Source: a virus. Taken from it: a stretch of 58,368 nt of DNA. The stretch spans positions 1 to 58,368 of the IMG/VR virus record IMGVR_UViG_3300033512_000032. The stretch is one strand, 5' to 3'. A program made the translations under genes and the position numbers. The notes under the pieces are model-generated. The model was not told the DNA's origin and did not search any database. It worked only from the letters and a program-made list of their open reading frames with translations. Shown here piece after piece: positions 3,004-44,144 of this stretch (positions are counted from its first letter, which is position 1; every line of letters begins with the position of its first letter).

Positions 3004-3004
3004 C

Positions 3005-12130: not shown

Positions 12131-12163
12131 GTACCTAACAAAATAAAAAGAAAGGAGATTATC

Positions 12164-20971: not shown

Positions 20972-20984
20972 AAAGGAGAATAAG

Positions 20985-21566
20985 ATGGCGTTAGATCAAT
21001 TAATGTTCGAAGAAGACTCAATGAGAACCCCCAACCTCAGTGGTTTAGATCGGCTAGGTCAGTTGGTTAATCGGCAACTTCAACTTGAAGCAGATATCAT
21101 GGAACTTGAAACGTATCTGTCTGAGAAAAATATTCAGTTGAAGAAAGTCGCTGAAGATGAGATACCTAATCTGTTTCAGGAACTTGGCATACAGGAGTTC
21201 AAACTGCAGGATGGTTCAAAGGTCACAGTCAAACCGTACTATGCTGCCAGTATAAGTGCAGATAAACAGGATGCTGCATTTACATGGCTACGTGAGAATG
21301 GCCTTGATGATGTGATTAAGCATAACATTACTGTTGCATATGGAAGGGGGGAAGGTAAAGAATGTGATAGGTTGAAAGCAGCATTAGCAGAACTCAATGT
21401 GAACTATGTTGAGAAAGCTGGCGTTCATCCGCAAACTTTAAAAGCACTCGTAAAAGAACAGATCGAAGTAATGAGTACTCGTCTTGAAGAAGGTGTTAAG
21501 TTTCCAATGGAACTTTTCAATGTCTTTATTGGGAATAAAACAACAGTCAAAAAACCTAAAAAATAG
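20985..21566 (+). CDS. Hypothetical coiled-coil protein (193 aa), recombination/replication module
   Basis: ORF track starts at 20913. I prefer the ATG at 20985, directly after TAGAAAGGAGAATAAG. Confidence 0.7.
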   Translation: MALDQLMFEEDSMRTPNLSGLDRLGQLVNRQLQLEADIMELETYLSEKNIQLKKVAEDEIPNLFQELGIQEFKLQDGSKVTVKPYYAASISADKQDAAFTWLRENGLDDVIKHNITVAYGRGEGKECDRLKAALAELNVNYVEKAGVHPQTLKALVKEQIEVMSTRLEEGVKFPMELFNVFIGNKTTVKKPKK

Positions 21567-21584
21567 AAAGGTGGAACATTATAT

Positions 21585-22388
21585 ATGAAGAAAGATGATA
21601 AGAAAGTAGAAGAAAAAGCAGTAGTTACAGTTGCACCGACGCAGGTACCTGCATTATCCAATGTTGATTTTGAAGGTGACGCCGGTGTCGGCTTTGAGAA
21701 TATGACAGCCAATGATATGGCAATTCCGTTCCTTGTAATTCTCCAGTCAGGTAGTCCTCAGTTGAAACGTGGTGAGTCAAAGATCGAAGGTGCAAGTGAA
21801 GGTGATATCTTCAACACAGTGACAGGGGATTTCTACAGTGGCCTCGAAGGTATCTTCGTTATCCCCTGTACCTATAAAAAATCCTATGTTGAATGGACAC
21901 CGCGTGATGCCGGCGGCGGTTTTGTTAGACAGCATGATGATGCTTCTATTATGAATGAAGCAAGTAAGGATGCAACAGGAAAAGACATTTTGCCGAATGG
22001 CCATGTTATTGTACCGACTGCATACCACTATGTTCTGATTACTGATCCGATTACCGGCGGTTACAATGAAGGTGTTATCAGTATGACGAGCACTCAGTTG
22101 AAGAAGTCTCGCAAATGGAACAGCATCATGAATGGTCTGAAGATGACTAAGAAAGATGGCACGAAGTTTACCCCGCCTATGTTCAGCCACATGTATAAGT
22201 TGACCACTGATCCTGAGTCAAATGAACTCGGAGCTTGGTCAGGTTGGCATGTTGATATTTACAGTCAGGTTCCTACACTTGAACTGTATAATGCCGCAAA
22301 GAAATTTGCCAAAGATGTACTCGCCGGTATTGTCAAAGAGTCATCTCCGCAAGTAACTGCAGTTGAGGATGATGGAGTTCCTTACTAG
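21585..22388 (+). CDS. Putative ssDNA-binding or annealing protein (267 aa)
   Basis: The acidic C-terminal tail ending in an aromatic residue (AVEDDGVPY) is typical of SSB-type partner-binding tails. The position in the replication module fits. The family was not recognised with certainty. Confidence 0.35.
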   Translation: MKKDDKKVEEKAVVTVAPTQVPALSNVDFEGDAGVGFENMTANDMAIPFLVILQSGSPQLKRGESKIEGASEGDIFNTVTGDFYSGLEGIFVIPCTYKKSYVEWTPRDAGGGFVRQHDDASIMNEASKDATGKDILPNGHVIVPTAYHYVLITDPITGGYNEGVISMTSTQLKKSRKWNSIMNGLKMTKKDGTKFTPPMFSHMYKLTTDPESNELGAWSGWHVDIYSQVPTLELYNAAKKFAKDVLAGIVKESSPQVTAVEDDGVPY

Positions 22389-22465: not shown

Positions 22466-22933
22466 ATGCTAATGCCTGTAGAGGAACGTTTTTGGGGTAA
22501 AGTTGATAAGTCTAAAGAGTGCTGGCTATGGTTAGGCGCAACTACTGAAGGGTATGGTCAGTTTGGTATTGGTAGAAAAAATGTACATGCTCATAGGTTT
22601 GCATATGAAGTAACATATGGTAAGATACCTGAAGGTTTATTCATACTACATAAATGTGATAATCCATCTTGTGTAAGACCAGACCATTTATTTTGTGGCA
22701 CTAACCAGGAAAATATGCAAGACGCTTATGATAAAGGTCGTGGTCCTAATCATATAGCAGTTTTGCATCGTGAAAAATATTATCCTTCACAAAAAGAATT
22801 GTGGAGACAAGAGGCCCACCCATCAGTGTCATATAAAACATTTATAAAAAGACTAAAATATCAAGGGTGGTCTTTTGAAGAAGCACTATACACTCTTTCT
22901 TATTGTGGTAATAAGTTAAGGAGGACTGTATGA
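22466..22933 (+). CDS. HNH homing endonuclease
   Basis: GYGQF...HAHRFAYE...HKCDNPSCVRPDHLFCGTNQEN matches the HNH_3-type signature. It is a free-standing gene between a terminator and the primase gene. Confidence 0.85.
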   Translation: MLMPVEERFWGKVDKSKECWLWLGATTEGYGQFGIGRKNVHAHRFAYEVTYGKIPEGLFILHKCDNPSCVRPDHLFCGTNQENMQDAYDKGRGPNHIAVLHREKYYPSQKELWRQEAHPSVSYKTFIKRLKYQGWSFEEALYTLSYCGNKLRRTV

Positions 22934-24441
22934 AAGGTTTAGCAAATGAGTTTCATAAAGTCTTTGCAGGTTTAGATAGGGCTTATGGCACATATAATGT
23001 CACAACGGAAAAGGGGTCTGGGAAGAAAATTGGCGCCGCTGCAATTATAAAGAAAATTGTGGATTCTAACCTTTGGTACAATCATTTAGTTGGTAAACAA
23101 GGTATTGGCATTATACCTATTAATGATGACTCATGCTGTAATTTTGGAGCAATAGATATAGATGTCTACACTGGCCTTAATATCCCAAATATTTTAAAGC
23201 AAGTGCGACAATTAAAGTTTCCATTGATACCATGCCGATCTAAATCAGGTGGCTGCCATTTATTTATATTCACTAGTGAAGAAGTACAAGCGGAATTATT
23301 AGTAACTAAGTTAAAAGAAATGGCCGCAGTCCTAGGTTATGGGAACTGTGAGATCTATCCAAGACAAATAAAAATTCTAGTAGAACGCGGCGATATTGGC
23401 CAATTCATTAATATGCCTTACTTCAATGGTGTCAAAGGTCTGAGGTATGCCATTGATGAAAATGGTGCACCTATTTCGCCTGAAGATTTTCTCAAATTAG
23501 TTACTCAGTTCCGTCAAACAAAAGATCAATTGTCAGCAGTCAAAGTAGATATGAGACCGGACCTCGAAGACGGCCCGCCATGTTTACAATATCTTATAAC
23601 GCAAGGTTTTCCTGAAGGTACACGAAACGATGGTCTCTTTAATCTTGGCGTTTATTTATTAAAAGCTTTTCCAGATACTTGGAAAGATAAAATCGAAGAT
23701 TATAACCGTGAGTATATGGATCCTCCATTACGGGCGGTTGAGATACAGGGAGTCATAAAGAGTTTAGAGAAGAAAGATTATTTCTACACATGTGATAAAG
23801 CGCCAGTAGTTTCTTACTGCAATAAAGCATTATGTATGACAAGGAAGTTTGGCATTGGCGTAACAGGGATGCCTGTCCTTAGTAGTCTCACAAAGTACGA
23901 CTGTAACCCACCCATCTGGTTTGTCAACGTAGATAATGGTGGAAGAATAGAGTTACTAACTGAAGACCTACAGAATCAATTACGCTTTCAGAAACGCTGC
24001 ATTGAGTCTCTAAACATCATGCCCCCTGTCATAGCAAAAAATCAATGGCAGCAATTAATACAGAAACTTCTTGACAAAGTAATTATAATAGAAGCCCCAG
24101 CAGACGCTTCTCCAGGTGGCCAACTGTTAGAGTACCTAGAAAAATTCTGCTCATCACGAGCTCAAGCTCAAAGTAAAGATGAAATCTTATTAGGCAAACC
24201 TCTTACAGAAAACAAACACCACTTCTTTCGCATGAGTGACTTCATGGCGTATCTCGAACGTAATCATTTCCGTGAGTTTAAAGTAAACAAAATAACTTCA
24301 ATTATTAAAGATCAATTAAAAGCAGAGCATCATTTCTTTTTACTTAAAGGTAAAGGTGTAAACTGCTGGTCTATACCTGAATTTAAAAGACAGACTGAAT
24401 CTCATGATGTGCCTGATTTCGATGATTCGCAGCCATATTAG
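22930..24441 (+). CDS. Archaeo-eukaryotic-type primase-polymerase (prim-pol) with PriCT-like domain
   Basis: AEP motif I GAIDIDVY and motif II SKSGGCHLFIF. PriCT-like FPEGTRNDGLFNLGVYLL. No Walker A motif was seen. Confidence 0.7.
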   Translation: MKGLANEFHKVFAGLDRAYGTYNVTTEKGSGKKIGAAAIIKKIVDSNLWYNHLVGKQGIGIIPINDDSCCNFGAIDIDVYTGLNIPNILKQVRQLKFPLIPCRSKSGGCHLFIFTSEEVQAELLVTKLKEMAAVLGYGNCEIYPRQIKILVERGDIGQFINMPYFNGVKGLRYAIDENGAPISPEDFLKLVTQFRQTKDQLSAVKVDMRPDLEDGPPCLQYLITQGFPEGTRNDGLFNLGVYLLKAFPDTWKDKIEDYNREYMDPPLRAVEIQGVIKSLEKKDYFYTCDKAPVVSYCNKALCMTRKFGIGVTGMPVLSSLTKYDCNPPIWFVNVDNGGRIELLTEDLQNQLRFQKRCIESLNIMPPVIAKNQWQQLIQKLLDKVIIIEAPADASPGGQLLEYLEKFCSSRAQAQSKDEILLGKPLTENKHHFFRMSDFMAYLERNHFREFKVNKITSIIKDQLKAEHHFFLLKGKGVNCWSIPEFKRQTESHDVPDFDDSQPY

Positions 24442-27813: not shown

Positions 27814-30800
27814 TTATTCGTTAAACATTCCCATATACATGGACTTGCTTGGTTTATATAATGCTTTTGCTTGAGTCTTTAAAGTCTGATTCGTTATAAA
27901 CGGAATCTGACCAGCTTTTTTAGACTTCATAATGGCATTATTATAGTTACTTATATCATCCATGATAGACTTCATATCTTTACTCGAACCTTTATCAATT
28001 ACATAGTCACGCCACCGCTCGAGAATCTTATCATGCTTCACTTTATAAGAAGCAATTTCACGTTTAGTTTCCCAAGTACGTTCACCCATGGTTGCTTGTT
28101 CAGCAGATCTAAAACCAACTAACCGAGCAGCAGTTTCCATAGTAGATGGTATGTAGGGTTTTCCACTATCATCCCAGACCCTCTGACCTTTTGTAGTAGT
28201 AACGCCGTTAAGTTCTCTAATTGCTCTAAAAACATTTGCAAAACCAGTAGGCAATACTTTTTCTGCTGCTCTGCCGGGTTGCCCAATCTGTAGGAAATGC
28301 ATAGCATCTTCTACATCTTTATATAGGCCGCCGCCAATACCGAATAACTCATAGAAATTCCGTGGTGTTCCTACACCAATTGACATTGACCCAGATACAT
28401 CTAAATTTGCGGCACCGAGTAAACCATGTCTCCCAATACGCTCTGGAGTTTTACCTAGTTTCTTTCTTATCCAATCCCAGAAACCTTTTTCAGGATCGTC
28501 ATCAGAACCCATGGCTTTAAACATTACTCCCACAATTCCAAATAAAAGATTCTTCATAGGAATAACTGTTGCACCACCAAGGATGACAGGGGATATTAGG
28601 CCATATAAGAAAGCTTTAATGTTTCCTTTACGTACCCCCGTATCATAGAGCATTTGTAAGTAGTTGTGAGGGAACTTTCCAAATGTGTATAGTACCTGAG
28701 ATAACCGGGCAGCAGGCCCAGTTCCCTGGCCAACGGCGAGTTGTGTAGATTTACCATATATGCCATGGGCTTTATCAGACACATCGTGAGCTTTTCTAGT
28801 AACTTCACGACTATCCATATCTGGATTATTTTCTTTTATTAACCGATATGCAGCAAGCATCGTTGTTCCACGTATCCATTGCTCTGATTTACCAAATAGA
28901 TACATTGCTGTAGCCATTGTTTTTGCCCATACTTTGCCGTGTGCTCTTTGAATAGTTCCAAGAGCATCTCTAGTATATTGAGGTGAATCATAACCACGTT
29001 GTTTTATTTCATCAATGAAGGCTTGTTCACCCTTATCATCAAGTTTCTGGCCAAGCATAACTTTACGGTAGTCATTGGAAGCAATTGAAAGAGCGCCCAT
29101 GATCTTGGTCAGAGATCCTTTGCCATCTAAACCATACTGGTGGATTGCTGTAGGAACTGTGGTCGCAAGAGATAAAATGTTCACCACAGGTGACCTTAAG
29201 TTAAACCCAAGATATTTAAATGATGCAAGACTCTTGATTAAACCAACAAGTCTATCTGCTGCATCTGAATTACGCAGTTGTTCTTCAATATATTTAGTAG
29301 CGGTGTCATAGGCCCGAGGTTCTTTTGCTGGGTCTATACCACCAATAAGCTTTTTATCTTTACCAGTACCTTCATAGTGACCAGCTAAAGTTTCAAACAT
29401 ATCTTTTGCTGCTTCACCTTTAGCAACACCTGCCGCTATATTATTAATGTACCGTACGAATCTTTCATTAGGATCTGTAATATAACCACGAATAGCATCA
29501 CCAGGTTTACGAGTAACCATTGAAGCACGGAAACCGCGAACACGGATAAGGTCTGCGACTTCTTTTAAAAGTTCTTCATTAAACTTTATTTCGAGTTCTG
29601 GATCTATACCTTCAACACGTTGCATTGCAGTTTTAATTGCTTGCTGTGTATTGATAATCCGTAATGAAGCATAAACGTCTTCAGGAAGTCTTTCACGTTC
29701 AAAGATTTCTTCGACCTTGTAACCTTTACGCTCGAGTTCTCGTTTCAATAACTCTGCTGCGAAACGATTTGATTTATGATACCGCACCACTTTATCGAAG
29801 CGCTTACCTTTAACTACATATTCTCCAGTCTCACGTAAACGAGGAGCATATGTTCCTTTCAATGAACCCATACGAGCGAGAACTGCTTTAAGATTAATAG
29901 TCTCTGGTTTTCCATCTTCATTAAGAGTTACAAACTCAGGGTATTTCGGTTTTGTATTATCTTTTTCTGCTTGCTTCTCTATGCTAGCAACTAGTTTCTT
30001 CATTGGTTCCATTAGAATATCTAGTGCTACATCATATGATCTTCTGTGCGCTTTATATAGGTTAATTACATCTTGACCAACACCTTCATTCTGGAAGTGC
30101 TGCTCCCATGTAGGTATGTTGTCTCCATAACCTTTTTTCCATTCACCAGTGTCAATCTGGTCTTTCATCTTTTCAAGTTGCTTGTATTCCTTGGACGTCT
30201 CGCCTTTGACTATTTGTGTAGTAGTTAAACCTCTATGCATTAACTTCATATTTGCTTCAATGATGTCAGAAGAATTTTCCCAGGTTCTCTGCTTCATTGT
30301 TTCAGGATTAACTTCCATTTCATTAAGCAAATTGAATAGTTCAAAGTACCGATCGTGCCTGTCAATTGCTGCACGAACAATCTTCTGCATAGTAGGATGC
30401 TTGTACCACTCAGGAGACATCAGATAACGTTCTGCCCAATGCATTGCTGGTTGGTTCTTTGGTAACTGCATTACCATTGTCTTCAGCATTGCATAAGCCT
30501 GGTCATCGAATAAATTCTTCAACTCCTGTTTCGGCGTGTCAGGGGTTATGTCCTGATAGTCTACAATGCGGAATCGGCCACGAGGTTCTTCTTTTTTAGG
30601 TACTAGTTTAAGACTAGGTTTATAATCAGAATCTATATTAAGTGAAATTCCATTCTCATTAACTGATAACTCAGGTCTAGGTCCATTTCTTAATTCATTC
30701 CATGGTACTGCACCTTCAGTCTCTAATTCATTTTCCGTTTTATACTTAGCATCTTCGACCTGATACTTAGCAATATTTTTACTTGTATCTATATCCAGTA

Positions 30801-33800
30801 AGAAAGATTTGTTTTTATTAACACTTTTAAAGTTGTCTATAGCAGTAAAAATACTATTTATTGTTTTATCAGATAAAAACATTCCCAGTTCTTCTTTAAT
30901 TGCAGAAGGTTTAAATGTGCTAAATGGTAAGGCCATTATACTAGCATTTGACTTTTGCTCTATTACACCAGTACCATCAGGTCTAAGTAAAAAGATTAAG
31001 TTATTTAGTTTTGAATCACTAAAGTCAATTTCACCGTCTTCGTCTTCGTCTTCAGGAACATAATTTAATTTGCGAATATCTTCATCATTAAGTTTGATAT
31101 AGTTATTGATAGGCGACAATGCGTAGTCGACAATACTGAATCTACCGCGAGGTTCTCTAAATTTATTTAGTGGAGAATTATATACTATCTTAGGGTTAGT
31201 TACTTTTTTAAGTTGACCAATAGAGGTAACTACTCCTGATTTTACTACTTTTGTAGTTGTATAATCAGTTACGTCATAAATAATTTCTCCACTATCTGCC
31301 TCATCAAAAGCAAATGAAATAGAATCTAATTGTTCTTGCGTTAATTTATGGTGATTGGGAATTTCTACATAGGCATTTCCATCATCAAGGTTTGTTCTAA
31401 TAAGTCCTACTTCTGTAAATAATTTTCCAAGTAAATCCCCAGTAAAACTATCAAACCCACTTACTAATTGTTTATATATGTCTGGATATTTGCTTTGAAG
31501 AACCTCAATGATCCGACTATGTGGTCCACCTAAAACAACTGCTGTTCCATCAGGTAATATTAGACCAGAATCATATGGAAAGCCATATTGTTCAGTGGGA
31601 AATGATTCTTTAATCGCGTCAATTATTTTCTGAGCATAATTGGTTTGTGTAGCAGTAAGAGTTTTTTCAGTTTTACTAAACCACGGTTGACCTTTCTCAA
31701 CTACTGACTTTGCCATTTCAGGTGTGACTGTGAAGCCGGGTTGCTTAGAAAGTTCTTTACGTTCAATAGGTTGCTTAGCGTTAAAATCTCTTAAGATTTG
31801 CTCACTATTATCTTCAATCCAATCATCAAGGTCTTCTTCGCTATTAAACTGTTTACTATATTCTATACTGCCATTTGGGTTAAGCACATTTATTGTTAAA
31901 TTATCATAGTTTGATACAATATGTGTACCTTCTTCTAAATTCCAGGCTGCTGTGCCTTCACCTAAAATAGCCTTTGGCAATGGTTTATCGAGATGCATAC
32001 TTATTGTCTCGAGTCTTGCGCCCCACTGCTTGATATATTTTTCAGTCCAGTTCTTTAACTTCTCATCATAGAATGATTCCATACCTTCACCACCAATCTC
32101 GATATCGAGATTGGTATAGTGAGCAGTATGTTGTGCAGTATTAGAATTGTCATATATTGGTTCATTACTTAACATGCTACTGGGAAATAAAAGCGATGGC
32201 AATTTTTTAATTGCTCTAACAGCAAGTTCTTTACCTACATAATCAACTAACTTTTCATATGTGTCTGCTGCTTTTTGCAGTACTTGGGTGCCATCTTTTT
32301 TAGCAGTTACACCATAAGCACCAGGTAACTTTCTAATAATCACTTCATCAACTCGTTCTGCAATAATTCCTGGGTAGCGCTCTTGCTGCTGCTTACCCGT
32401 GGTCCAAGCGACGGAGTCAAAGTTATTATCAACAGCGTAGCGAATCATCCTCTTCATGAGGACCACATGCCAGTTCTCTAGGAACGGGGCAGTAGGTATT
32501 TGCTGTGAAAGTTCTCCACCTTCTACTATACTAAAATCTTGTTGTCCTAGTAACTTCTGCCAGGAGTTAAGAGCAGTTTGTGCTGCTTCTCTAGTGTTGT
32601 AGTGGCCAACTCGTGCCTCACCATTCATTACATGGTAAACTTGCTTTGTGTTAAAACCATATTTCTTTGCGTCTTGCAACCAGTCACTCTGAATTTCTTC
32701 AATGAACAAGACTCTCCGACCTTGGTCGTCGATTCGTTCATTAAACCGTATGTGCCCTAAAACATTGGCCTCGTGCCAGTGAGAGGATTGGTATAATGTT
32801 TTAGCACGTTTAGAACTGTCATTAGTTAATACGGTGACAGCATGTTCTGCTTTGGACGGATTGTTCCAACTAGATATAACTCTATCTGTATTATCATAAA
32901 CGTACCAGTTGCCATCTTCAGCACTATACTCAACTCTATATGTAACCTTAGACTTTGGCGCTTCAGTTGGGCTCCAGATCAGAAGTAATTCCCTCTGATC
33001 TTTGCCGCCGGACAGTACCCACTGATCATGTCTTAGATTACCGGAACGGCCAGTACCATCAATATAACTATCTGGATCATCATATAGTATTTCACGATCA
33101 GATTCATAGTCATCGATAATGGCATAAACCTTGTCTAACTCACCTTCAGTTAATTTGATACCAAATGGGTCAAGTACATCTATAAATGAAGGAACAGAGA
33201 ACTTGTTTACATTATCAAAACAACTGTCATATATACTTTGAAGAAACTCATCCTCAAAAGTATCATTATTTAATGCTGCCTGTAAACCATTTTGCCCTGC
33301 ATTTTCTATAGCAATAGTAAACAACCTGCCAGTAAGTTCTATTTGTATGTCACCCAAATTATCAAGTGCAGTCTCTGTAAAATAATTGATGTTAGTGTTA
33401 CTACCAACTGTAACTGTTTGCTCACTAATCCAGTTATGCAGTTCAGTTATCATGTCATCTGTAGCATTATCACCGTCTGCTTCCCATTCATTTGAAAACT
33501 CTTGTAGGTAGGTTGTTTGTTCCGGTGTTAAAATATAATTACCAAGAAGTATTTCACTGGCTGATAATTGTGGCATAGGGATTGTGGTACCAGGAGCTTT
33601 ATCACTATGCATTACTTCTTCAACTTTAATCTGATTTGCACTTAAGAAGTTAATGAAGTCTTGCTTATTAATTTTCTCTTTCCCTTTAAGATACTGCTCA
33701 ACTCCCATCCATTTTAACTCTGCCGGTTTAACAAACTTATTCAGCCAATTGACGAGTGACTGAGGTTTAGTAGGCATATCAGTTCGAGTAGTAACAGTTT

Positions 33801-36800
33801 GAAGAAGTGTAGAATAGAATGTAGGAGCATTGGTTACTTTGTCAAGACGAGGAATCTTTTCATTACTGAAGTAATCTTCAATGTTTGTACTTGCACCTAT
33901 TTCGCCTTTAAGAAACTTCTGCGAGTCAGACAGGAGTGCTTTAAGGTCACCTGTGGTAAGATTAACACCAAAACCGATACTACGCAAAATGTTATTAATC
34001 GACATTCTAACTTTTTCCCAGAATGTAGTAGTTCCCTGATTCTCTTCAGCCATGAAAGCTAGATATTCGGCGCCTGCATCTATGCGATCTTTTTCTTTGC
34101 CTACATCAAATTTATAGTCGAAGATAATCTTTTCCATTTTCTTTGTATCTTTAAATGAATCATATATACTCAAAGCAGTACTATCAAACTTTGTCCCAAG
34201 AGTCTTATATATTCCGTAATGTCCAATAGACTCGTGTAACATTGTGCGCATAACGCCAAACTTATTATGCAGTTCACTTCTGATTAAGAATACTGTATCA
34301 CCTAACTGAGCGCCGCCAATGTCATACCTATCTGAATCAGCAGCAATTTTCTCTTTCAATTCAGGAGGCAATTGATCCCTGTTATCAAGAACAATAACAA
34401 ACGGGGAATTTGGCCAGAGTTCCGAGATTCGATCAGACACGTCAGTTACTTCTTTAACTGAGAGCCCCGGACCTTTGCCTTCGGTTCTTTTAAAACCCCC
34501 TGACTTCTTAGTACGACCTACTCCAATCTCAATTGTCTTACTCAAGAAGTCTTTTACAACGGCAACATCTTGAGTGAATGATTGTTTTTCATCATAGGTC
34601 CCTGCTTCAGTTCTCTCAGTTGGTGCAAAGAAGTTATCAAGTTTTCCTGCTTTAACGCCCTTTTCCAACTGAGTAATAAACTTACTGATCATACTCAGAT
34701 CAACAGTTCCATCACTAAAGTGGCCAGCATAATTGATCATTGCTGCAAAGGCCCGAGGCATGGTGACAGGGGACATCTTCTTTAGCATCCGCATGCCTGT
34801 GTCTGGTTCAATTTCAGTATAATGATCAAGTTGTTCCTGTGCCATTACTGGAGACATATATGAAATATGCTTCGCTAATGGGTGCTCTTGCTTATTAGTT
34901 TCTTCTCCATTATCTTTTTCACCAAACCATTGAACTTTAGGTGAAGATTTCTTTGCCATTAATCGATTAGCAAGAATCTTTATATCTTGACGAGTTGAAT
35001 CAATTGCAAACTCAATATCTTCTCGTTCCTGTTCAGTAGTTGCTTTTGCTAATTCTGCCTTTAACTTTTTAAGTTCAGACTGAGATTTCTTTATCAGATC
35101 ACGTATAGTCTTCTTAACTACTTTCTTTGGTTTAGTTCCTGCTTTTGCAATAGCGCGCTGATCGGCTCTCGCTTCTCGTTCTTCTTCAGTTAATGATGCT
35201 TTATTTTGTTCTGTCTTATAGGCAGGTTCATGCTCTTCCCATTTATTTGTTTCTGGATTACGGGTCCACCTTAAAGCAAGAGTCTTAAACTTCGCTACAC
35301 CTTCGTCAGTAACGTCTTCTCCTGCCTTAAGGCGTTTTTCAACAACATTAGCCCGTAGTTTTTCAACTTTCTGTTTAGGTGTCACTTGGGTTTCGGTTTG
35401 CACTTGGCCATTAGTTTCACCTCCTTCTTTTACAATAGCTTCTTTAGGTATTACACCCATATAAACTACTGACAATTCTCCTTGTTCACCAGATTTAAAC
35501 ATACGTAACGCGGTGGATTTAGTTTTCAATAAGTCATATGGAGTTTTACTGAAATCTCTACCGTCATTTGTAACTTCAACATCATAGTTCATATCTGGAA
35601 AAAGTTTTTCAATATCTAGTTTAGAAGTATCAACTTTAATTATATTACTTGTAGTATCTTCCATAAGTGTAGCTTCATTTAAATCAGTAAAGAAGAAAGT
35701 TCCACCATTAACACCAAGACTTGGGTTAAAGCCATTTTCTTCAATATCTTTAACTGTTTCTAAATTAGTGGCGTGGTAAAGAAAAGGTTTACTTTTTATA
35801 TTTTTCTGAAACTTATTTTTAGCTGCAATAACTTCAGGATCATTTACTACTTCTCGCTCTTCTTCAGTAAGGGTAGGTCTATTTGCTTCACCTCCTTTAA
35901 CTAATTTAAGTTGTAACTTGTCAATTTGACTTTTGGTTAAGCTTTCTTTAGCCTGTGTGATTAAAGTGTCAAAGTCGCCCTCATGCTCTTCAAGGTGATC
36001 TGCTATGGTATCAAAATATACTGCTACTGGCTGTCTATTAAATTCTTCCATCCAAATATCATATTGCTTTTTAATATTTTCTTCACCAGTAGTGTAAAGT
36101 TTTTCAATTTCTTCTTGGGTGATGCCTTTAGTATCATGTAACCAGTCTTCTAGAACGTCCATTGGATATTCACCAAGGTCACTAGAGTCTAACTGTTTAG
36201 TAATTTCATCAATTATAGTTGTACTTTTAGGAACAAATTTAATTACGTTATCTTTAGCTTTTACTAATTCTTTATTTAATTCAGAATACTCTTTCTTTTT
36301 TAATGGTGGATTGTCTTCATCAAAATCTTCATTACCAGAAAAACTTATAATACTATTAACTGGTACGTTACCAAGATATATGCATTCAGTTAATTTTTGA
36401 CTATTTGCTAAGTCAAATAATTTTAACTCTAATTCAGGGTTACTTTTTATCTCAGCAGGTGAAATATAGCCTTCTTCACCTTTTAAAGTAGATTCTAAAG
36501 TAAAAGGATCTGGCAGCACTTTATTCATATCTAATAATTTTGCAATAAATTTAACAATATGTGCACCATATCCCATAGCATCAAATGGGGTAAAAAATAC
36601 TTCACCCTTGTCGTTTTTAAGTATTCCATTTTTTAATATGTCAGTTACAGGTACATTAGTGGCATGGTAAAAAATTCCTTTATCACTGAGTATGTAGTCA
36701 ATAAACTTTTTCTTTGCTATATTAAGTCTAGTAGCTACTTCTTGCGCTTTAGACTTAGTTTTAGTTTCTTCAGGTTTTGCCTGAGTAGTTTCTGTTGTCT

Positions 36801-39129
36801 TTTTAACTGGAGTTTCAGTAACTGGTTTAGTTTCATTTTGCTCCTTTATCTTTTGTTCTTTACGCTTCTCGCGTTCAATAGTTTTTGCCACTGCACTACG
36901 GCGTGAAACAGTTCGCTGATAAATTTTAGTTTTCTCATGACCTTGTTCTTCAAGGTCAGAGATAATACTATCAAGTACTGATAAACCTTCAGTTGGAGTC
37001 TTTGCTGCAAGGTATTCAGTATTACGGCGATTTACATATTCTTGAGCAGACTCTACTTTAGGTTGTGCAGGAACTAGTTCTTTACGACGAGCTACCCATT
37101 GCTTTTCACCAAGTTGAACTGGTACATATTTTTCTTCAGTGCCTTCATGCTTCATTTCTTTATAATTCTTTTGGATTGCACGCATGGCACTTACTTTATT
37201 TGTAAAAGGTTTCCCTTTATTTGTTAAATCATCAGTGTTAGAGTTCTCGTATGTAGGTGCCACTGGAACTGCTTGCTGTACAGGGGTTTGTGTAGGTCTC
37301 TGCTCCTGTTTGCCTTGTCCAGTGATAATGAGTGGTTGGCGTCTGTTACCTGCGACTACCTGCCCGAGGTTCTGGGACATTTGAGTCATTGCAATGGGTG
37401 CGCCAACCCATTCATTTTGGGCAAGTTCCATAGGTGCATGTGTCTCAGATAAACCTTGCTTCTTTAAGATTGCTTTAACTGAACCTTTATTAGAGAACAA
37501 CTCTCCCTTACTTGTGAAGACTAGTTGATTCTTTAAATTTTCGGGAATATTTTGTATTATACTTTTACCAGGCGTTAATTTAATAGTGTCACTAGTGGAG
37601 TCCTGTGGAGCCTCTTTTTCAATAGGATTACCGCTTTTGTCTAAAATTACACTCGGTTGAATATTAGGTGTCTGTGCACCTGGGTCCTTGGCACCCATAA
37701 TAAATGATGCCATGTCATTTGCTTTTTCTTCACTGAAACCTTTTTCAATAAACTTATCAAATAACTGTTGACGTAGTTCAAGGCCCATGGTCTGTCTAAC
37801 AACTTTATCATCAGCTGGTTTCTGCTCACCTTCAGGAATAACTTCAGGCTGATCAACTTTCGGTTGACCTCGCTCCATGAACTTATTAGTGTCAATATCA
37901 TTTTGCTTCGCGACTTCTTGATCTGCGAGTACGCCTTCTAAAGGTTTCATATCAGTGAACTTTTTATCAAGTTCTATTGGTTCACCTTCAAGAAGTTTAT
38001 ACTGTGCTATCTCACCCCATTTTTGAGCAACATTTGTATTATTAACTTTGTCAGTTTTTTGTAGTTCAGTGTAAATAGTTCTCATTGCATCGAAACGAGT
38101 ATCAAAATCCGTTTCCGGATTTTCTAACGCTTTAATAATGTTTGCTCGTTTCTTTACATCAACACCATGGAACAGACCACCAGTTATTGCTACTGATGTT
38201 ATTGTAGGGATAATTGAATCTACCGCTGCTTGCCAAGGTGTCTGACTCTGTGGCAAACCCATATCTATATTACTTTGGGTTTGTAAATAATTCTGGGTCA
38301 TTTCAGTAGCTACTTCAGCCGGTTGTGCTTTTGCTTGCGCTACTAAATAGTTTTTAGCACCACCTTTCCAACCCTGCTTTAGAATACTTCTAATAGATTC
38401 TTTGACTGGTTGTGTAGCAAGTTTACCCAAACCAAATGTGACACCTTCAATAACGTTAGATGCTGCTTCAAAACCACCTTCAATTAAGGCCTGTTTAAAA
38501 GCTTCATTCTTATATACATCTGCAGGTATAGGATTTTCTGGGTTCTCAGCATTATGTTTAAGCACATCACGGACTACTTGATCATATTGTGCGAGGCCAA
38601 AGATTGTGCCACCGCCACCAGCGAAACCAATAATAGCACCAGCAACTGGCATACCTACAGCAGAACCAACTGCTGCACCAGCGATAGCACCTGGAAGACC
38701 AGACCCAAGGGAAGGCACAATCATTTCTGCGCCTTCACGAACTTGACCACGAAGGTACGATTCGTCTTTTGCTGGTCCATAGACGTAAGGATATTTTTTC
38801 TCTAGTTTTTCTTTATTGACTACTAGCCAATTTGCAAATTGACCGACATAGTCTTCAGTATCACCAAAGTGCTTCTCATCTAGGTTCTCTCCGCCAGCAT
38901 GACCACCATAAGCTAATCTTGCTGCAGCTAACGTTCCTACTAAATTAGTAGCACCTACAACTGGAACTAATAAGGCATCCATAAATGGAGACCGTGCAAT
39001 ACCAGTAGACTGTTGTAGCTGTTGAGGTTGCTCAACTGCAGTTGATAGACCATAAAGGTCAGTTTGGTCGGTGGAAGTTAAATCAGTAGAAACGTTAAGA
39101 TCGGTTAAACCGTAAAGATCATCAGACAT
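27814..39129 (-). CDS. Giant virion-associated polyvalent protein (about 3,771 aa)
   Basis: Uninterrupted 11.3-kb ORF. The track starts at a TTG at 39168, but the ATG at 39129 follows GAAAGGAAAAAT. It is the last gene of the late operon. Contents: a Gly-rich hydrophobic N-terminus, two ART-like modules, a duplicated EPRGRF peptide and multiple C-terminal hydrophobic helices. Confidence 0.85.
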   Translation of the reverse strand: MSDDLYGLTDLNVSTDLTSTDQTDLYGLSTAVEQPQQLQQSTGIARSPFMDALLVPVVGATNLVGTLAAARLAYGGHAGGENLDEKHFGDTEDYVGQFANWLVVNKEKLEKKYPYVYGPAKDESYLRGQVREGAEMIVPSLGSGLPGAIAGAAVGSAVGMPVAGAIIGFAGGGGTIFGLAQYDQVVRDVLKHNAENPENPIPADVYKNEAFKQALIEGGFEAASNVIEGVTFGLGKLATQPVKESIRSILKQGWKGGAKNYLVAQAKAQPAEVATEMTQNYLQTQSNIDMGLPQSQTPWQAAVDSIIPTITSVAITGGLFHGVDVKKRANIIKALENPETDFDTRFDAMRTIYTELQKTDKVNNTNVAQKWGEIAQYKLLEGEPIELDKKFTDMKPLEGVLADQEVAKQNDIDTNKFMERGQPKVDQPEVIPEGEQKPADDKVVRQTMGLELRQQLFDKFIEKGFSEEKANDMASFIMGAKDPGAQTPNIQPSVILDKSGNPIEKEAPQDSTSDTIKLTPGKSIIQNIPENLKNQLVFTSKGELFSNKGSVKAILKKQGLSETHAPMELAQNEWVGAPIAMTQMSQNLGQVVAGNRRQPLIITGQGKQEQRPTQTPVQQAVPVAPTYENSNTDDLTNKGKPFTNKVSAMRAIQKNYKEMKHEGTEEKYVPVQLGEKQWVARRKELVPAQPKVESAQEYVNRRNTEYLAAKTPTEGLSVLDSIISDLEEQGHEKTKIYQRTVSRRSAVAKTIEREKRKEQKIKEQNETKPVTETPVKKTTETTQAKPEETKTKSKAQEVATRLNIAKKKFIDYILSDKGIFYHATNVPVTDILKNGILKNDKGEVFFTPFDAMGYGAHIVKFIAKLLDMNKVLPDPFTLESTLKGEEGYISPAEIKSNPELELKLFDLANSQKLTECIYLGNVPVNSIISFSGNEDFDEDNPPLKKKEYSELNKELVKAKDNVIKFVPKSTTIIDEITKQLDSSDLGEYPMDVLEDWLHDTKGITQEEIEKLYTTGEENIKKQYDIWMEEFNRQPVAVYFDTIADHLEEHEGDFDTLITQAKESLTKSQIDKLQLKLVKGGEANRPTLTEEEREVVNDPEVIAAKNKFQKNIKSKPFLYHATNLETVKDIEENGFNPSLGVNGGTFFFTDLNEATLMEDTTSNIIKVDTSKLDIEKLFPDMNYDVEVTNDGRDFSKTPYDLLKTKSTALRMFKSGEQGELSVVYMGVIPKEAIVKEGGETNGQVQTETQVTPKQKVEKLRANVVEKRLKAGEDVTDEGVAKFKTLALRWTRNPETNKWEEHEPAYKTEQNKASLTEEEREARADQRAIAKAGTKPKKVVKKTIRDLIKKSQSELKKLKAELAKATTEQEREDIEFAIDSTRQDIKILANRLMAKKSSPKVQWFGEKDNGEETNKQEHPLAKHISYMSPVMAQEQLDHYTEIEPDTGMRMLKKMSPVTMPRAFAAMINYAGHFSDGTVDLSMISKFITQLEKGVKAGKLDNFFAPTERTEAGTYDEKQSFTQDVAVVKDFLSKTIEIGVGRTKKSGGFKRTEGKGPGLSVKEVTDVSDRISELWPNSPFVIVLDNRDQLPPELKEKIAADSDRYDIGGAQLGDTVFLIRSELHNKFGVMRTMLHESIGHYGIYKTLGTKFDSTALSIYDSFKDTKKMEKIIFDYKFDVGKEKDRIDAGAEYLAFMAEENQGTTTFWEKVRMSINNILRSIGFGVNLTTGDLKALLSDSQKFLKGEIGASTNIEDYFSNEKIPRLDKVTNAPTFYSTLLQTVTTRTDMPTKPQSLVNWLNKFVKPAELKWMGVEQYLKGKEKINKQDFINFLSANQIKVEEVMHSDKAPGTTIPMPQLSASEILLGNYILTPEQTTYLQEFSNEWEADGDNATDDMITELHNWISEQTVTVGSNTNINYFTETALDNLGDIQIELTGRLFTIAIENAGQNGLQAALNNDTFEDEFLQSIYDSCFDNVNKFSVPSFIDVLDPFGIKLTEGELDKVYAIIDDYESDREILYDDPDSYIDGTGRSGNLRHDQWVLSGGKDQRELLLIWSPTEAPKSKVTYRVEYSAEDGNWYVYDNTDRVISSWNNPSKAEHAVTVLTNDSSKRAKTLYQSSHWHEANVLGHIRFNERIDDQGRRVLFIEEIQSDWLQDAKKYGFNTKQVYHVMNGEARVGHYNTREAAQTALNSWQKLLGQQDFSIVEGGELSQQIPTAPFLENWHVVLMKRMIRYAVDNNFDSVAWTTGKQQQERYPGIIAERVDEVIIRKLPGAYGVTAKKDGTQVLQKAADTYEKLVDYVGKELAVRAIKKLPSLLFPSSMLSNEPIYDNSNTAQHTAHYTNLDIEIGGEGMESFYDEKLKNWTEKYIKQWGARLETISMHLDKPLPKAILGEGTAAWNLEEGTHIVSNYDNLTINVLNPNGSIEYSKQFNSEEDLDDWIEDNSEQILRDFNAKQPIERKELSKQPGFTVTPEMAKSVVEKGQPWFSKTEKTLTATQTNYAQKIIDAIKESFPTEQYGFPYDSGLILPDGTAVVLGGPHSRIIEVLQSKYPDIYKQLVSGFDSFTGDLLGKLFTEVGLIRTNLDDGNAYVEIPNHHKLTQEQLDSISFAFDEADSGEIIYDVTDYTTTKVVKSGVVTSIGQLKKVTNPKIVYNSPLNKFREPRGRFSIVDYALSPINNYIKLNDEDIRKLNYVPEDEDEDGEIDFSDSKLNNLIFLLRPDGTGVIEQKSNASIMALPFSTFKPSAIKEELGMFLSDKTINSIFTAIDNFKSVNKNKSFLLDIDTSKNIAKYQVEDAKYKTENELETEGAVPWNELRNGPRPELSVNENGISLNIDSDYKPSLKLVPKKEEPRGRFRIVDYQDITPDTPKQELKNLFDDQAYAMLKTMVMQLPKNQPAMHWAERYLMSPEWYKHPTMQKIVRAAIDRHDRYFELFNLLNEMEVNPETMKQRTWENSSDIIEANMKLMHRGLTTTQIVKGETSKEYKQLEKMKDQIDTGEWKKGYGDNIPTWEQHFQNEGVGQDVINLYKAHRRSYDVALDILMEPMKKLVASIEKQAEKDNTKPKYPEFVTLNEDGKPETINLKAVLARMGSLKGTYAPRLRETGEYVVKGKRFDKVVRYHKSNRFAAELLKRELERKGYKVEEIFERERLPEDVYASLRIINTQQAIKTAMQRVEGIDPELEIKFNEELLKEVADLIRVRGFRASMVTRKPGDAIRGYITDPNERFVRYINNIAAGVAKGEAAKDMFETLAGHYEGTGKDKKLIGGIDPAKEPRAYDTATKYIEEQLRNSDAADRLVGLIKSLASFKYLGFNLRSPVVNILSLATTVPTAIHQYGLDGKGSLTKIMGALSIASNDYRKVMLGQKLDDKGEQAFIDEIKQRGYDSPQYTRDALGTIQRAHGKVWAKTMATAMYLFGKSEQWIRGTTMLAAYRLIKENNPDMDSREVTRKAHDVSDKAHGIYGKSTQLAVGQGTGPAARLSQVLYTFGKFPHNYLQMLYDTGVRKGNIKAFLYGLISPVILGGATVIPMKNLLFGIVGVMFKAMGSDDDPEKGFWDWIRKKLGKTPERIGRHGLLGAANLDVSGSMSIGVGTPRNFYELFGIGGGLYKDVEDAMHFLQIGQPGRAAEKVLPTGFANVFRAIRELNGVTTTKGQRVWDDSGKPYIPSTMETAARLVGFRSAEQATMGERTWETKREIASYKVKHDKILERWRDYVIDKGSSKDMKSIMDDISNYNNAIMKSKKAGQIPFITNQTLKTQAKALYKPSKSMYMGMFNE

Positions 39130-39183
39130 ATTTTTCCTTTCAAGAGGTTCCTCATTGCGAGACCCCAATAAATAAAGTTGCCA

Positions 39184-43276: not shown

Positions 43277-43753
43277 TTACTTTTTATCAACAGGGGCTGA
43301 GTTAAATATCATATCTGTTTTATCCTTTGAAGATTTTGTAGTTCCAAAGAAATATCCAGTAATTGTTTTATACTCACCTATAATGATTCCTACAAAGCCA
43401 CCAATTAAAGCAGCCACGCCAGGTTCTACGGTTGGAAGGCCTTTGTAAAGTAGATAACTAATAATGCCTATTGGAGCAATAACACACCAAGTAGCTAGAA
43501 TATATAGGAAATAATCTGCATGGCCTGTTGCTTGTTCTCTCTTACTTTGGTTATCCCTTGCATTAGCTCGATCTTTAAATTCCTCAATCTTAAGTTGAAA
43601 CTCATTATTTAAGTCCTGAAGTTCACCTTTCTGTTGCAACTCGAACAATGCAAACTTAGCCTTATCCGCATCTGCTTTATCTGGGAATATCTTATCAAGT
43701 ATCTTCCCACCAAAGTCTGCAATACTTCCAATTCCTAAAGCATCAAGTCCCAT
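43277..43753 (-). CDS. Holin-like membrane protein (resembles the 3-TM GTA-type holin family)
   Basis: N-terminal ILDKIFPDKADADKAKFALFELQ followed by hydrophobic helices FLYILATWCVIAPIGIISYLLY and AALIGGFVGIIIG. Adjacent to a putative wall hydrolase. Confidence 0.45.
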   Translation of the reverse strand: MGLDALGIGSIADFGGKILDKIFPDKADADKAKFALFELQQKGELQDLNNEFQLKIEEFKDRANARDNQSKREQATGHADYFLYILATWCVIAPIGIISYLLYKGLPTVEPGVAALIGGFVGIIIGEYKTITGYFFGTTKSSKDKTDMIFNSAPVDKK

Positions 43754-43754
43754 A

Positions 43755-44144
43755 CTATTCTCCCTTCACTATCTCAATCGTTAGTTCCTGCCCTTTAATC
43801 TTATTCATCAGCGTAGCAAAAGCTGTCCTAGATCGACCTATGTAATCATATCCCTTTGTGCATCCAACAAGTAAGCATCCTTCTGTGTCTTGTGCTGTGT
43901 TCCCAGAATGAATGCGAACACCTTCAAAGCCTGGGACATCCTTAATCAAAGGCATATACTTTTGGAAACGTGGACTGAAAGTAATTTCAACGTCATACGT
44001 TCCATAAGGGATCGCAGTCTTACCGTATATCTTCTCAGGTCGGGCAGCATCCTCCAGAGTAAAACAGAAATGCTCACCATCAATAAGTAGTTCACCAATG
44101 GTAGATATTTCAGTAAACTCTCTCCTAATTACAATCAGCTTCAT
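43755..44144 (-). CDS. Putative cell-wall hydrolase (DUF5675-like, His/Cys motif)
   Basis: 129 aa. VRIHSGNTAQDTEGCLLVG resembles the H...GC catalytic signature of YkuD-fold enzymes. Sits in the lysis cassette. Family recalled from memory. Confidence 0.4.
   Translation of the reverse strand: MKLIVIRREFTEISTIGELLIDGEHFCFTLEDAARPEKIYGKTAIPYGTYDVEITFSPRFQKYMPLIKDVPGFEGVRIHSGNTAQDTEGCLLVGCTKGYDYIGRSRTAFATLMNKIKGQELTIEIVKGE

What the first reader, a model, noticed from the sequence alone, without database searches (positions are those of the whole stretch)
35430..36700. Two tandem ADP-ribosyltransferase-like modules inside the giant protein
Two modules of about 120 aa lie roughly 300 aa apart and share the same ordered landmarks.
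- Module 1 (nt about 36340-36700): KGIFYHATNVPVTDILKNGI...GEVFFTP...TECIYLGNVPVNSI.
- Module 2 (nt about 35430-35800): KPFLYHATNLETVKDIEENGF...GGTFFFT...GELSVVYMGVIPKEAI.

The common pattern is a [FL]YHATN strand-turn with a conserved His, an FFT strand, and a late Glu followed by a hydrophobic strand and G-x-[VI]-P. That is the pattern expected for H-Y-E type ART folds (PARP, Tpt1/KptA-like, and the ART domains described in polyvalent phage proteins). A duplicated NAD-utilising effector delivered with the DNA would be a host-takeover or anti-defence device.
Basis: inference. Interest (0 to 1): 0.7.

Follow-up and report, generated by a model that had tools for sequence, protein, structure and literature searches.

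The report
Two ART-fold modules in giant phage protein
A 3,784-residue phage protein carries two diverged copies of a small NAD-binding, ADP-ribosyltransferase-type domain from a family with no curated model, a new variation on the known theme of phages packing host-modifying enzymes into giant multi-domain proteins.

Summary
Residues 816-950 and 1113-1255 of the 3,784-aa ORF (27814-39168, minus strand) are homologous: BLASTP E 6e-11, 30% identity, z=15 against shuffles.

Both fold as ADP-ribosyltransferases (ARTs):
- AlphaFold2 gives pLDDT 88 and 77.
- For module 2 every one of the 50 listed PDB matches, and for module 1 all but one weak match, is an ART (Tpt1/KptA, pertussis-like toxins, PARP10/14, DarT).
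- A profile of 83 homologues matches Tpt1 (5e-5) and DarT1 (4.5e-4) sequences.

The strand-1 His and Thr are invariant (83/83). The "late Glu" is not conserved: only module 1 has it, module 2 has Ser, and the family has Asn or Thr. The strand-2 Tyr is Phe in both modules.

No Pfam model detects them, including ART-PolyVal. Only about 80 mostly standalone relatives turned up.

The modules lie in a low-GC, 479-aa cassette that is absent from the only known orthologue. The host protein ends in a PLxRFG tail shared with classical polyvalent phage proteins.

Most likely these are accessory NAD-using effector domains of a polyvalent protein. Activity, target and virion delivery are untested. Known kind, new family; moderate interest.

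The parts
27814..39168 (-). Giant ORF (3,784 aa) that carries the two modules; a polyvalent-type late protein
   Evidence: It is a single open frame. It lies at the distal end of the minus-strand late operon, which holds the major head protein at 56622-57632 and a tail-like gene at 50056-53265. No Pfam or PHROG family matches it.
36319..36723 (-). ART-fold module 1 (aa 816-950); configuration His835 / Phe858 / Glu928
   Evidence: The AlphaFold2 model has pLDDT 88.3 and pTM 0.81, with six strands. Foldseek against the PDB finds EcPltA (4e-4), pertussis S1, Tpt1, TreX, cholera toxin, scabin and DarT. Glu928 sits immediately before strand 114-116 of the model.
35404..35832 (-). ART-fold module 2 (aa 1113-1255); configuration His1132 / Phe1159 / Ser1233, with Glu1231 two residues upstream
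   Evidence: The AlphaFold2 model has pLDDT 76.8 and pTM 0.72. Foldseek against the PDB finds Tpt1/KptA (1.7e-3, probability 1.0), PltA, PARP14/10 and DarT1. Against BFVD it finds the phage PaBG 'putative RNA 2'-phosphotransferase' at 3.5e-6, plus phage G, PBS1 and phage DarT.
35833..36318 (-). 162-aa acidic, probably helical linker between the modules (aa 951-1112); no recognised domain
   Evidence: It has no family hit. It is part of the low-GC cassette.
35437..36873 (-). Lineage-specific cassette (aa 766-1244): Lys/Glu/Thr-rich spacer, module 1, linker, module 2
   Evidence: The cassette is absent from the only orthologue. The L002 giant protein (2,868 aa) aligns at q47-765/s67-786 and q1245-1852/s875-1483, with only 88 aa in between and no hit to the module profiles. 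GC is 31.4% and GC3 18.6%, against 38.6-40.4% and 25-30% in the flanks.
36664..36666 (-). Codon of His835 (module 1), the invariant strand-1 His
   Evidence: His is present in 83/83 aligned homologues. It aligns with the HGT His of Tpt1/KptA.
35773..35775 (-). Codon of His1132 (module 2), the invariant strand-1 His
27925..29853 (-). C-terminal 'tail-700' PLxRFG domain (aa 3106-3748), which places the giant protein in the polyvalent class
   Evidence: NCBIfam NF032893 matches at E 1.7e-32 and 112.8 bits, above the cut-off of 100. The same region finds the giant proteins of Pseudomonas phage 8P and Microcystis phage Mwe-JY07. Those proteins carry methylase, SNF2, InPase and LPD3/23/39 domains.

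Best explanation
The two segments are diverged paralogous copies of a compact (about 125-135 aa) ADP-ribosyltransferase-fold, NAD+-binding domain. The domain consists of a leading helix and a six-stranded split sheet.

They belong to a small family with no curated model. The family sits in the His-first-strand (PARP / Tpt1-KptA / DarT) division of the ART superfamily. It is separate from ART-PolyVal, the family usually seen in polyvalent proteins.

The modules lie in a low-GC, about 480-aa accessory cassette. The cassette was inserted into the conserved scaffold of a giant PLxRFG-tail polyvalent protein encoded at the end of the late (virion) operon.

Proposed mechanism:
- The giant protein is made late and goes with the virion into the next cell.
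- There, one or both modules bind NAD+ through the Y-H-A-T strand and the F-F-T strand.
- They transfer ADP-ribose to a host macromolecule, either a protein or a phosphorylated or exposed nucleic-acid group.
- Module 1, which has a Glu at the canonical strand-5 position, is the better candidate for the active copy.

Shown here: the duplication, the ART fold, the family relationship, the cassette nature and the polyvalent scaffold.
Inferred: NAD+ use, catalysis, the target and virion delivery.
For: **Homology of the two modules.**

**ART fold for both.**. All 50 listed PDB matches of module 2 are ARTs, and 49 of the 50 for module 1. Viral structure matches include a phage Tpt1-like protein and phage DarT.

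**Sequence-profile links.**
- The 83-sequence profile matches Tpt1/KptA at 5e-5, DarT1 at 4.5e-4 and PARP10 at 0.25.
- hhalign against E. coli KptA gives probability 92.9% and E 3.6e-7.
- 30/83 members hit Pfam PARP and 27/83 hit PTS_2-RNA below threshold.

**Conservation.**
- His and Thr of Y-H-x-T are 83/83.
- YHATN is identical in both modules although they share only 30% identity overall. The motif is 20/23 identical even at DNA level, which argues for continued constraint on the NAD site.

**Cassette.** It is absent from the orthologue and is compositionally distinct.

**Scaffold.**
- The protein carries the PLxRFG tail.
- That tail is shared with giant phage proteins full of polyvalent-protein domains.
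- A phage with a related capsid (42% identity) has, at the same genomic slot, a giant protein with ddrB-ParB and two matched stretches of ART-PolyVal.

**Literature.** ARTs are the commonest modifying domain of polyvalent proteins, in 1-12 copies, and are predicted to be injected (PMC5512222, PMC9503650).
Against: - Both modules have lost residues that are nearly invariant in the family: Gly after His (80/83, here Ala), strand-2 Tyr (79/83, here Phe), the D-E-D motif (here DMN and DPF), Ser (80/83) and Gly (80/83) before strand 5.
- The strand-5 catalytic-type Glu is present only in module 1.
- TM-scores to solved ARTs are modest (0.42-0.48).
- No curated ART model reaches its threshold.
- No ADP-ribose hydrolase or other NAD-linked partner was seen among the 30 window proteins scanned, though this was not exhaustive.
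- Virion packaging is inferred only from gene position, analogy and a depositor's 'structural protein' label for phage 8P.
- The closest relative does without the cassette, so it is not essential.
Confidence: 0.55

Rival explanations
1. The modules are degenerate ART-fold pseudo-enzymes. They keep the fold, and perhaps bind NAD+, ADP-ribose or a related nucleotide, but they do not catalyse transfer. They would act as ligand-binding, sponge, docking or spacer domains in the giant protein.
For: - Several near-invariant family positions are replaced in both copies: G to A, Y to F, D-E-D lost, Ser and Gly before strand 5 lost.
- Module 2 has no Glu, Asp or Gln at strand 5.
- The cassette is dispensable in the orthologue.
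- The modules are the most divergent members of the family. The exhaustive search with their own profile found only two true relatives, at 1e-5 and 2e-4.
Against: - The His-x-Thr strand is perfectly kept in both copies despite 30% overall identity.
- From general knowledge, active ARTs tolerate variation at the second and third triad positions. Tpt1 has His at the strand-2 position (alignment), and PARP10 and PARP14 lack the Glu.
- The short-form relatives P0002 and P0009 share Phe at strand 2 and lack D-E-D. These changes therefore look like a subfamily signature rather than decay.
Confidence: 0.25
2. The modules act on nucleic acids in the manner of Tpt1/KptA or DarT, rather than on host proteins. 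They would ADP-ribosylate, or remove through ADP-ribosylation, phosphate groups or bases of RNA or DNA. Possible uses are tRNA repair after host anticodon nucleases, capping of nucleic-acid ends, or marking of host DNA.
For: - The best sequence-level relatives with solved structures are Tpt1/KptA and DarT1.
- The best viral structural match is annotated as a phage RNA 2'-phosphotransferase.
- Phage KptA-based RNA repair is described in PMC9503650.
Against: - The modules lack the N-terminal RNA-binding lobe of Tpt1. Only a single helix precedes the ART core, and hhalign's confident alignment to KptA is confined to residues 97-122, within its C-terminal half.
- Module 1's best structural matches are protein-targeting toxins.
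- No RNA ligase or 2H phosphoesterase was noted in the window proteins scanned.
Confidence: 0.17
3. The resemblance to ARTs is spurious. The two segments are an internal repeat of unrelated fold and function.
For: - No curated family model reaches threshold.
- TM-scores to PDB ARTs are below 0.5.
Against: - Two independent models, both with pTM of at least 0.72, retrieve ARTs almost exclusively.
- Independent sequence profiles reach Tpt1, DarT and PARP at the same motif.
Confidence: 0.03

Closest known systems
ART-PolyVal (Pfam PF18760; Tox-ART-HYD2 clade) domains of phage and conjugative-element polyvalent proteins (Iyer et al. 2017, PMC5512222)
   Same: - ART-fold domain with His in strand 1.
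- Embedded in a giant multi-domain phage protein encoded with virion genes.
- Often present in more than one copy per protein.
- Predicted to be injected and to modify host macromolecules.
- A capsid-related phage (vB_Pun_Y3) carries two matched stretches of ART-PolyVal at the same genomic slot.
   Different: - PF18760 does not detect the window modules even at E<=10. It detects the Y3 protein at 1.3e-14.
- The configuration here is H-F-E and H-F-S, against H-Y-D.
- By sequence the family is nearer to Tpt1, DarT and PARP.
Tpt1/KptA RNA 2'-phosphotransferase (PF01885), NAD+-binding C-terminal lobe
   Same: - Best sequence-profile and (for module 2) best structural match.
- Shared motifs: LYH[GA]T, then a helix with G-[LI]-x-P, then the hhh[LF][ST] strand, then a strand ending in I-D.
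   Different: - There is no N-terminal winged-helix lobe with the catalytic Arg-His-Arg-Arg tetrad (general knowledge of Tpt1 structures).
- A roughly 45-residue helical insert lies between strands 4 and 5.
- Scores are far below the Pfam and NCBIfam cut-offs.
Phage T4 Alt (R-S-E ART packaged in the head and injected)
   Same: It is the functional model: a late-made, virion-carried ART that modifies host proteins on entry (PMC5512222).
   Different: - It belongs to a different ART division, with Arg-Ser-Glu rather than His in strand 1.
- It is a standalone protein, not a domain of a giant protein.
- There is no detectable sequence relationship.
Small standalone phage and bacterial proteins of the same uncharacterised family (P0002-P0088; for example hypothetical proteins of Rhizobium sp. 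BK176 and Brucella)
   Same: - Homologous over the whole module.
- Shared motifs: LYHGT, VYLT, L-x-I-D-T-x-x-L, P-D, and C-x-Y-x-G-x-I-P-P-E-A-I.
- Some are encoded in phage-like strings of small genes.
   Different: - They are standalone proteins of 125-250 aa.
- Most have Tyr in strand 2, a D-E-D motif and a C-terminal extension that the window modules lack.
- None was found inside a giant protein.

Membership tests
ADP-ribosyltransferase (ART) superfamily | Split beta-sheet core of two three-stranded units, with structural similarity to known ARTs | tested here: met
   Both models have six strands. All 50 listed PDB matches of module 2 and 49 of 50 for module 1 are ARTs, with probabilities up to 1.0 and TMq 0.42-0.48. 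The best BFVD match has E 3.5e-6, and TMq reaches 0.59.
His-first-strand division (H-Y-[EDQ]: PARP, Tpt1/KptA, DarT) | His in strand 1 within an H-G-[ST]-like turn | tested here: met
   Both modules read Y-H-A-T. His and Thr are invariant in 83/83 homologues. The motif aligns with the HGT of Tpt1/KptA.
His-first-strand division (H-Y-[EDQ]) | Tyr in strand 2 | tested here: not met
   Both modules have Phe (F858, F1159). The family has Tyr in 79/83. Tpt1 has His at the aligned position, so the position varies within the division.
His-first-strand division (H-Y-[EDQ]) | Glu, Asp or Gln at the start of strand 5 | tested here: inconclusive
   Module 1 has Glu928 directly before the strand. Module 2 has Ser1233. 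The family has N38/T30/S8/Q3/E1. No coordinates were available for superposition.
Tpt1/KptA (PF01885) | Score above the curated cut-off, plus an N-terminal RNA-binding lobe | tested here: not met
   The modules have no Pfam hit at E<=10. Relatives reach only 17-19 bits against a cut-off of 26. hhalign's confident alignment to KptA covers only residues 97-122, within its C-terminal half. Only one helix precedes the ART core.
PARP catalytic domain (PF00644) | Score above the Pfam gathering threshold | tested here: not met
   The modules have no hit. 30/83 relatives hit the model, with a best E of 1.6e-5.
ART-PolyVal (PF18760) | Match to the Pfam model; H-Y-D configuration | tested here: not met
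   There is no hit for the giant protein at E<=1 or for the modules at E<=10. One of 83 relatives hits at 0.062. As a positive control, the vB_Pun_Y3 giant protein hits at 1.3e-14.
Alt/ModA/ModB (R-S-E ARTs) | Arg in strand 1, S-x-S motif, E-x-E motif | tested here: not met
   Strand 1 carries His, not Arg. There is no E-x-E before strand 5. The assignment of motifs to this family rests on general knowledge and PMC5512222.
Polyvalent proteins of phages (the host protein) | Giant multi-domain protein encoded with virion genes that shares domains with other polyvalent proteins | tested here: met
   The protein is 3,784 aa and lies at the end of the late operon. Its PLxRFG tail scores above the NCBIfam cut-off. 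That tail is shared with giant proteins carrying LPD3/23/39, InPase, SNF2 and methylase domains.
Polyvalent proteins of phages | Packaged in the virion and delivered into the host | not testable with these tools
   The only support is gene position and a depositor's 'structural protein' label for the phage 8P homologue.
ART enzymes in general | NAD+ binding and ADP-ribosyl transfer | not testable with these tools
   This needs biochemistry. The sequence evidence is mixed.

The most novel reading that the evidence does not exclude
The modules would represent an undescribed minimal ART family with an H-F-x active site, carried as an enzyme/pseudo-enzyme pair.
- Module 1 (with Glu) would be catalytic.
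- Module 2 (without Glu) would be regulatory or substrate-binding.
- The target would not be a classical protein substrate. It could be a nucleic-acid end, or an NAD-derived immune signal or NAD-dependent defence system.

That would be a new biochemical activity delivered by a polyvalent phage protein.
Probability: 0.12. Interest if true: 0.65.

Novelty: new variant of a known kind. Interest (0 to 1): 0.4.

Why it matters
ARTs in polyvalent phage proteins were predicted in 2017, but I found no experimental study of one in the papers I consulted.

- This case adds a second, unrelated ART family to that setting. Curated models cannot see it, so surveys of phage NAD/ADP-ribose systems based on existing models probably miss it and its roughly 80 standalone relatives.
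- The cassette is small and cleanly delimited, and it is absent from a sister phage. That makes it a convenient test object: express it, mutate the invariant His, and look for the target.
- If active, it gives a new entry point to the question of what injected ARTs do at the start of infection.
- If inactive, it would be an example of an ART fold reused as a binding module.

Tried and rejected
- **Pfam, PHROGs and NCBIfam on the modules and giant protein.** Nothing for the modules. The only significant hit on the giant protein is the C-terminal PLxRFG tail.
- **Word-indexed protein search with the 461-aa region.** No hit.
- **Exhaustive profile search of 1.84 billion representatives.** Three hits, one of them (P0001, a repeat-rich 2,763-aa adhesin-like protein) rejected as spurious.
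- **PDB sequence search with the two-module profile.** Nothing. It worked only after the family alignment was enlarged.
- **blastn and tblastn of the region against GenBank phages.** No DNA match. One weak tblastn hit (E 0.01) in an unannotated 484-kb phage, not followed up.
- **Scans of metagenome and viral contigs for the cassette.** None found. Scans for more orthologues of the giant protein returned only one contig, twice. Conservation of the modules among orthologues and dN/dS could therefore not be assessed.
- **Direct homology between the window giant protein and the vB_Pun_Y3 polyvalent proteins.** Only marginal hits, E 0.004-0.01.
- **AcrIF11-type ART.** Considered after a literature hit. 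No AcrIF11 entry appears among the listed fold matches, so it was not pursued.
- **N4-type virion RNA polymerase identity for the giant protein.** Considered because the capsid is of the N4 gp56 type. No PHROG or Pfam support.
- **Extended hhalign to KptA (low mact).** The C-terminal part of the alignment was unreliable, so the strand-5 equivalence rests on the predicted secondary structure only.
- **Search for flanking direct repeats that would explain cassette insertion.** Only short, imperfect repeats coding T-E-[EQ]-E-R-E and the YHATN motif.
Full report
**1. What is in the sequence**

The interval lies inside one uninterrupted minus-strand ORF, 27814..39168, of 3,784 aa.

The two segments are truly homologous:
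- BLASTP gives E 6e-11 with 41/137 identities.
- The Smith-Waterman score is 113, against 30.4 +/- 5.4 for 2,000 shuffles (z = 15). No other stretch of the protein scores above 41.
- A profile of the two finds no third copy in any frame of the window.

With the N-terminal helix that belongs to the fold, the modules span aa 816-950 (nt 36319-36723) and aa 1113-1255 (nt 35404-35832).

**2. Relatives**

Curated libraries see nothing. There is no Pfam or PHROG hit for the giant protein or for the isolated modules, even at E<=10. A word-indexed search with the 461-aa region found nothing.

An exhaustive HMMER search of 1.84 billion representative proteins with the two-module profile gave three hits. 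One is a spurious repeat protein. The other two are small proteins, P0002 (141 aa) and P0003 (206 aa).

Two rounds of profile searching enlarged this to 79 proteins:
- Nearly all are standalone 'hypothetical' proteins of 125-250 aa.
- They share the motifs LYHGT, VYLT, L-x-I-D-T-x-x-L, P-D-E-D and C-x-Y-x-G-x-I-P-P-E-A-I.
- Some sit in phage-like runs of small genes.
- Some are in Rhizobium and Brucella replicons.

The two window modules are each other's best match (43.5 bits), only slightly ahead of P0002 (40 bits). That fits an old internal duplication but does not prove it.

**3. Fold**

AlphaFold2 with the 83-sequence alignment gave pLDDT 88.3 and pTM 0.81 for module 1, and pLDDT 76.8 and pTM 0.72 for module 2. 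Each model has a leading helix and six strands.

Foldseek against the PDB returned ADP-ribosyltransferases almost exclusively: all 50 listed matches for module 2 and 49 of 50 for module 1.
- Module 2: Tpt1/KptA (best E 1.7e-3, probability 1.0, TMq 0.42-0.44), EcPltA, PARP14, PARP10, PARP15, DarT1 and a diphtheria-toxin homologue.
- Module 1: EcPltA (4e-4), pertussis S1, Tpt1, TreX, cholera toxin, scabin and DarT.
- Module 2 against predicted viral structures: a phage PaBG 'putative RNA 2'-phosphotransferase' (3.5e-6), several phage G proteins, PBS1 and a phage DarT.

Sequence profiles agree independently:
- The family profile matches Tpt1/KptA chains (5e-5), DarT1 (4.5e-4) and PARP10 (0.25) at the same motif.
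- 30/83 members hit Pfam PARP and 27/83 hit PTS_2-RNA below threshold.
- hhalign against E. coli KptA gives probability 92.9% and E 3.6e-7.

The fold assignment is therefore well supported, although TM-scores are modest.

**4. Active-site positions**

| Position | Family (83 sequences) | Window modules |
|---|---|---|
| His of Y-H-x-T | 83/83 | His in both |
| Thr of Y-H-x-T | 83/83 | Thr in both |
| Gly after His | 80/83 | Ala in both |
| Strand-2 Tyr | 79/83 | Phe in both |
| Start of strand 5 (canonical Glu site) | N38 / T30 / S8 / Q3 / E1 | Glu928 in module 1 (the single E); Ser1233 in module 2 |

- The family's D-E-D motif, and a Ser and a Gly before strand 5 (each 80/83), are also replaced in both modules.
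- The short-form relatives P0002 and P0009 share the Phe and lack D-E-D. This may be a subfamily signature rather than decay.
- YHATN is identical in the two modules, and 20/23 identical at DNA level, despite 30% overall identity. That argues the NAD-site strand is still under constraint.

The configurations are thus H-F-E and H-F-S, not a canonical H-Y-E triad.

**5. Setting**

The window is a phage genome:
- Portal, large terminase and major head protein are present. The closest capsid-protein relatives in GenBank include the N4 gp56-family capsid protein of vB_Pun_Y3.
- A DNA polymerase and helicases are also present.
- Searches give the details.

The giant gene closes the minus-strand late operon.

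Its C-terminal aa 3106-3748 match NCBIfam NF032893, the 'tail-700' PLxRFG domain, above the cut-off (E 1.7e-32, 112.8 bits against 100). The same tail detects giant proteins of Pseudomonas phage 8P (5,145 aa, deposited as 'structural protein') and Microcystis phage Mwe-JY07. Those proteins carry Eco57I and C5 methylase, SNF2, InPase, LPD3, LPD23 and LPD39 domains, which is the repertoire that defines polyvalent proteins (PMC5512222).

Pseudoalteromonas phage vB_Pun_Y3 has a capsid protein 42% identical to the window's. At the same slot it has a 3,421-aa protein with ddrB-ParB, two matched stretches of ART-PolyVal, a methyltransferase, LPD5 and LPD1, followed by a second protein with a weaker ART-PolyVal match, just below the Pfam cut-off.

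The host protein is therefore a polyvalent-type protein. ARTs, often in several copies, are the commonest modifying domains of that class (PMC5512222, PMC9503650).

**6. The modules are an accessory cassette**

The only orthologue found is on IMGVR_UViG_3300014204_000439, which was recovered twice. It is 2,868 aa long.

It aligns with the window protein at aa 47-765, 1245-1852, 2046-2530 and 2829-3782. Only 88 aa stand where the window has aa 766-1244, and there is no hit to the module profiles.

The cassette has GC 31.4% and GC3 18.6%, against 38.6-40.4% and 25-30% in the flanking conserved blocks. That favours acquisition in the window's lineage.

However, the orthologue keeps 'KVIKEEGETHGQ', which resembles the end of module 2, 'AIVKEGGETNGQ'. 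Loss in the other lineage is therefore not excluded.

No other copy of the cassette was found in GenBank phages, IMG/VR or JGI metagenome contigs.

**7. Interpretation**

Best reading (about 0.55): these are accessory NAD+-using ART effector domains of a polyvalent protein that is made late, probably carried in the virion, and acts early in the next infection. Module 1 is the likelier active copy.

Rivals:
- Pseudo-enzyme or ligand-binding modules (0.25).
- A Tpt1/DarT-like action on nucleic acids rather than on proteins (0.17).
- A spurious resemblance (0.03).

Catalysis, target and delivery are inference.

**8. Comparison and novelty**

It works like the ART domains of polyvalent proteins and like T4 Alt. 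It is not a member of ART-PolyVal, PARP, Tpt1/KptA or Alt by their defining models or motifs. The concept is known. The domain family has no curated model, and I did not find it described in the papers read here. It is rare, with about 80 sequences recovered. I rate it a new variant of a known kind, of moderate interest.

Noticed in passing
window 30685-31578 (aa 2531-2828) and 33034-33612 (aa 1853-2045), minus strand: There are two further segments of the giant protein with no counterpart in the orthologue L002. The first is also low in GC (31.7%, GC3 17.8%). Neither has a family hit, and they may be additional accessory effector cassettes.
   Followed up: partly
window 34219-34236 (aa 1645-1650), minus strand: The motif MLHESIGHYG is conserved as MLHEVVGHHG in the orthologue, within a 53%-identical block. 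It is an HExxxH-like motif that could mark a metallopeptidase of the kind common in polyvalent proteins. No model matched it.
   Followed up: partly
window 27925-29853 (aa 3106-3748), minus strand: This is the C-terminal PLxRFG 'tail-700' domain with a hydrophobic segment (aa 3517-3554). It is shared by giant polyvalent proteins of phages infecting Pseudomonas and Microcystis, and NCBI's name 'PLxRFG protein' is also attached to a 495-kDa protein of Klebsiella Lastavirus phages (PMC9505181). Its function is unknown.
   Followed up: partly
window 33613-33750 approx. (aa 1808-1854), minus strand: This stretch has weak similarity (E 0.01) to the LPD5 region of the vB_Pun_Y3 polyvalent protein, and a sub-threshold Pfam MSV199 hit at the same place.
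   Followed up: no
window 35019-35037, 35172-35211, 35850-35889: Three imperfect DNA repeats encode T-E-[EQ]-E-R-E. One lies just upstream of module 2 and two lie downstream in the conserved backbone. They could be a trace of the recombination that built the cassette.
   Followed up: no
window 22930-24441 (+), 12101-13156 (+), 15733-16560 (+), 20913-22388 (+): The early and replication region encodes an AEP-TOTE-type primase domain protein, a DUF932 protein, a thymidylate-synthase-like protein (possibly for base modification) and Pam3 gp33/gp34-like proteins.
   Followed up: no
window 43277-44144, minus strand: A DUF5675 protein (E 1.8e-32) and a protein with a near-threshold GTA_holin_3TM match sit between the tail genes and the giant gene.
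   Followed up: no
L004 5980-7729 (Rhizobium sp. BK176 contig): A standalone member of the ART family (P0063) lies in an island of hypothetical genes. A ProQ/FinO-like gene lies about 0.5 kb upstream, separated from it by one small ORF. This could be a mobile-element leading-region context.
   Followed up: no
P0013 and P0014 (metagenomic proteins): Two small relatives also appear to carry two copies of the domain in tandem. Duplication of this module may therefore recur outside the giant protein.
   Followed up: no
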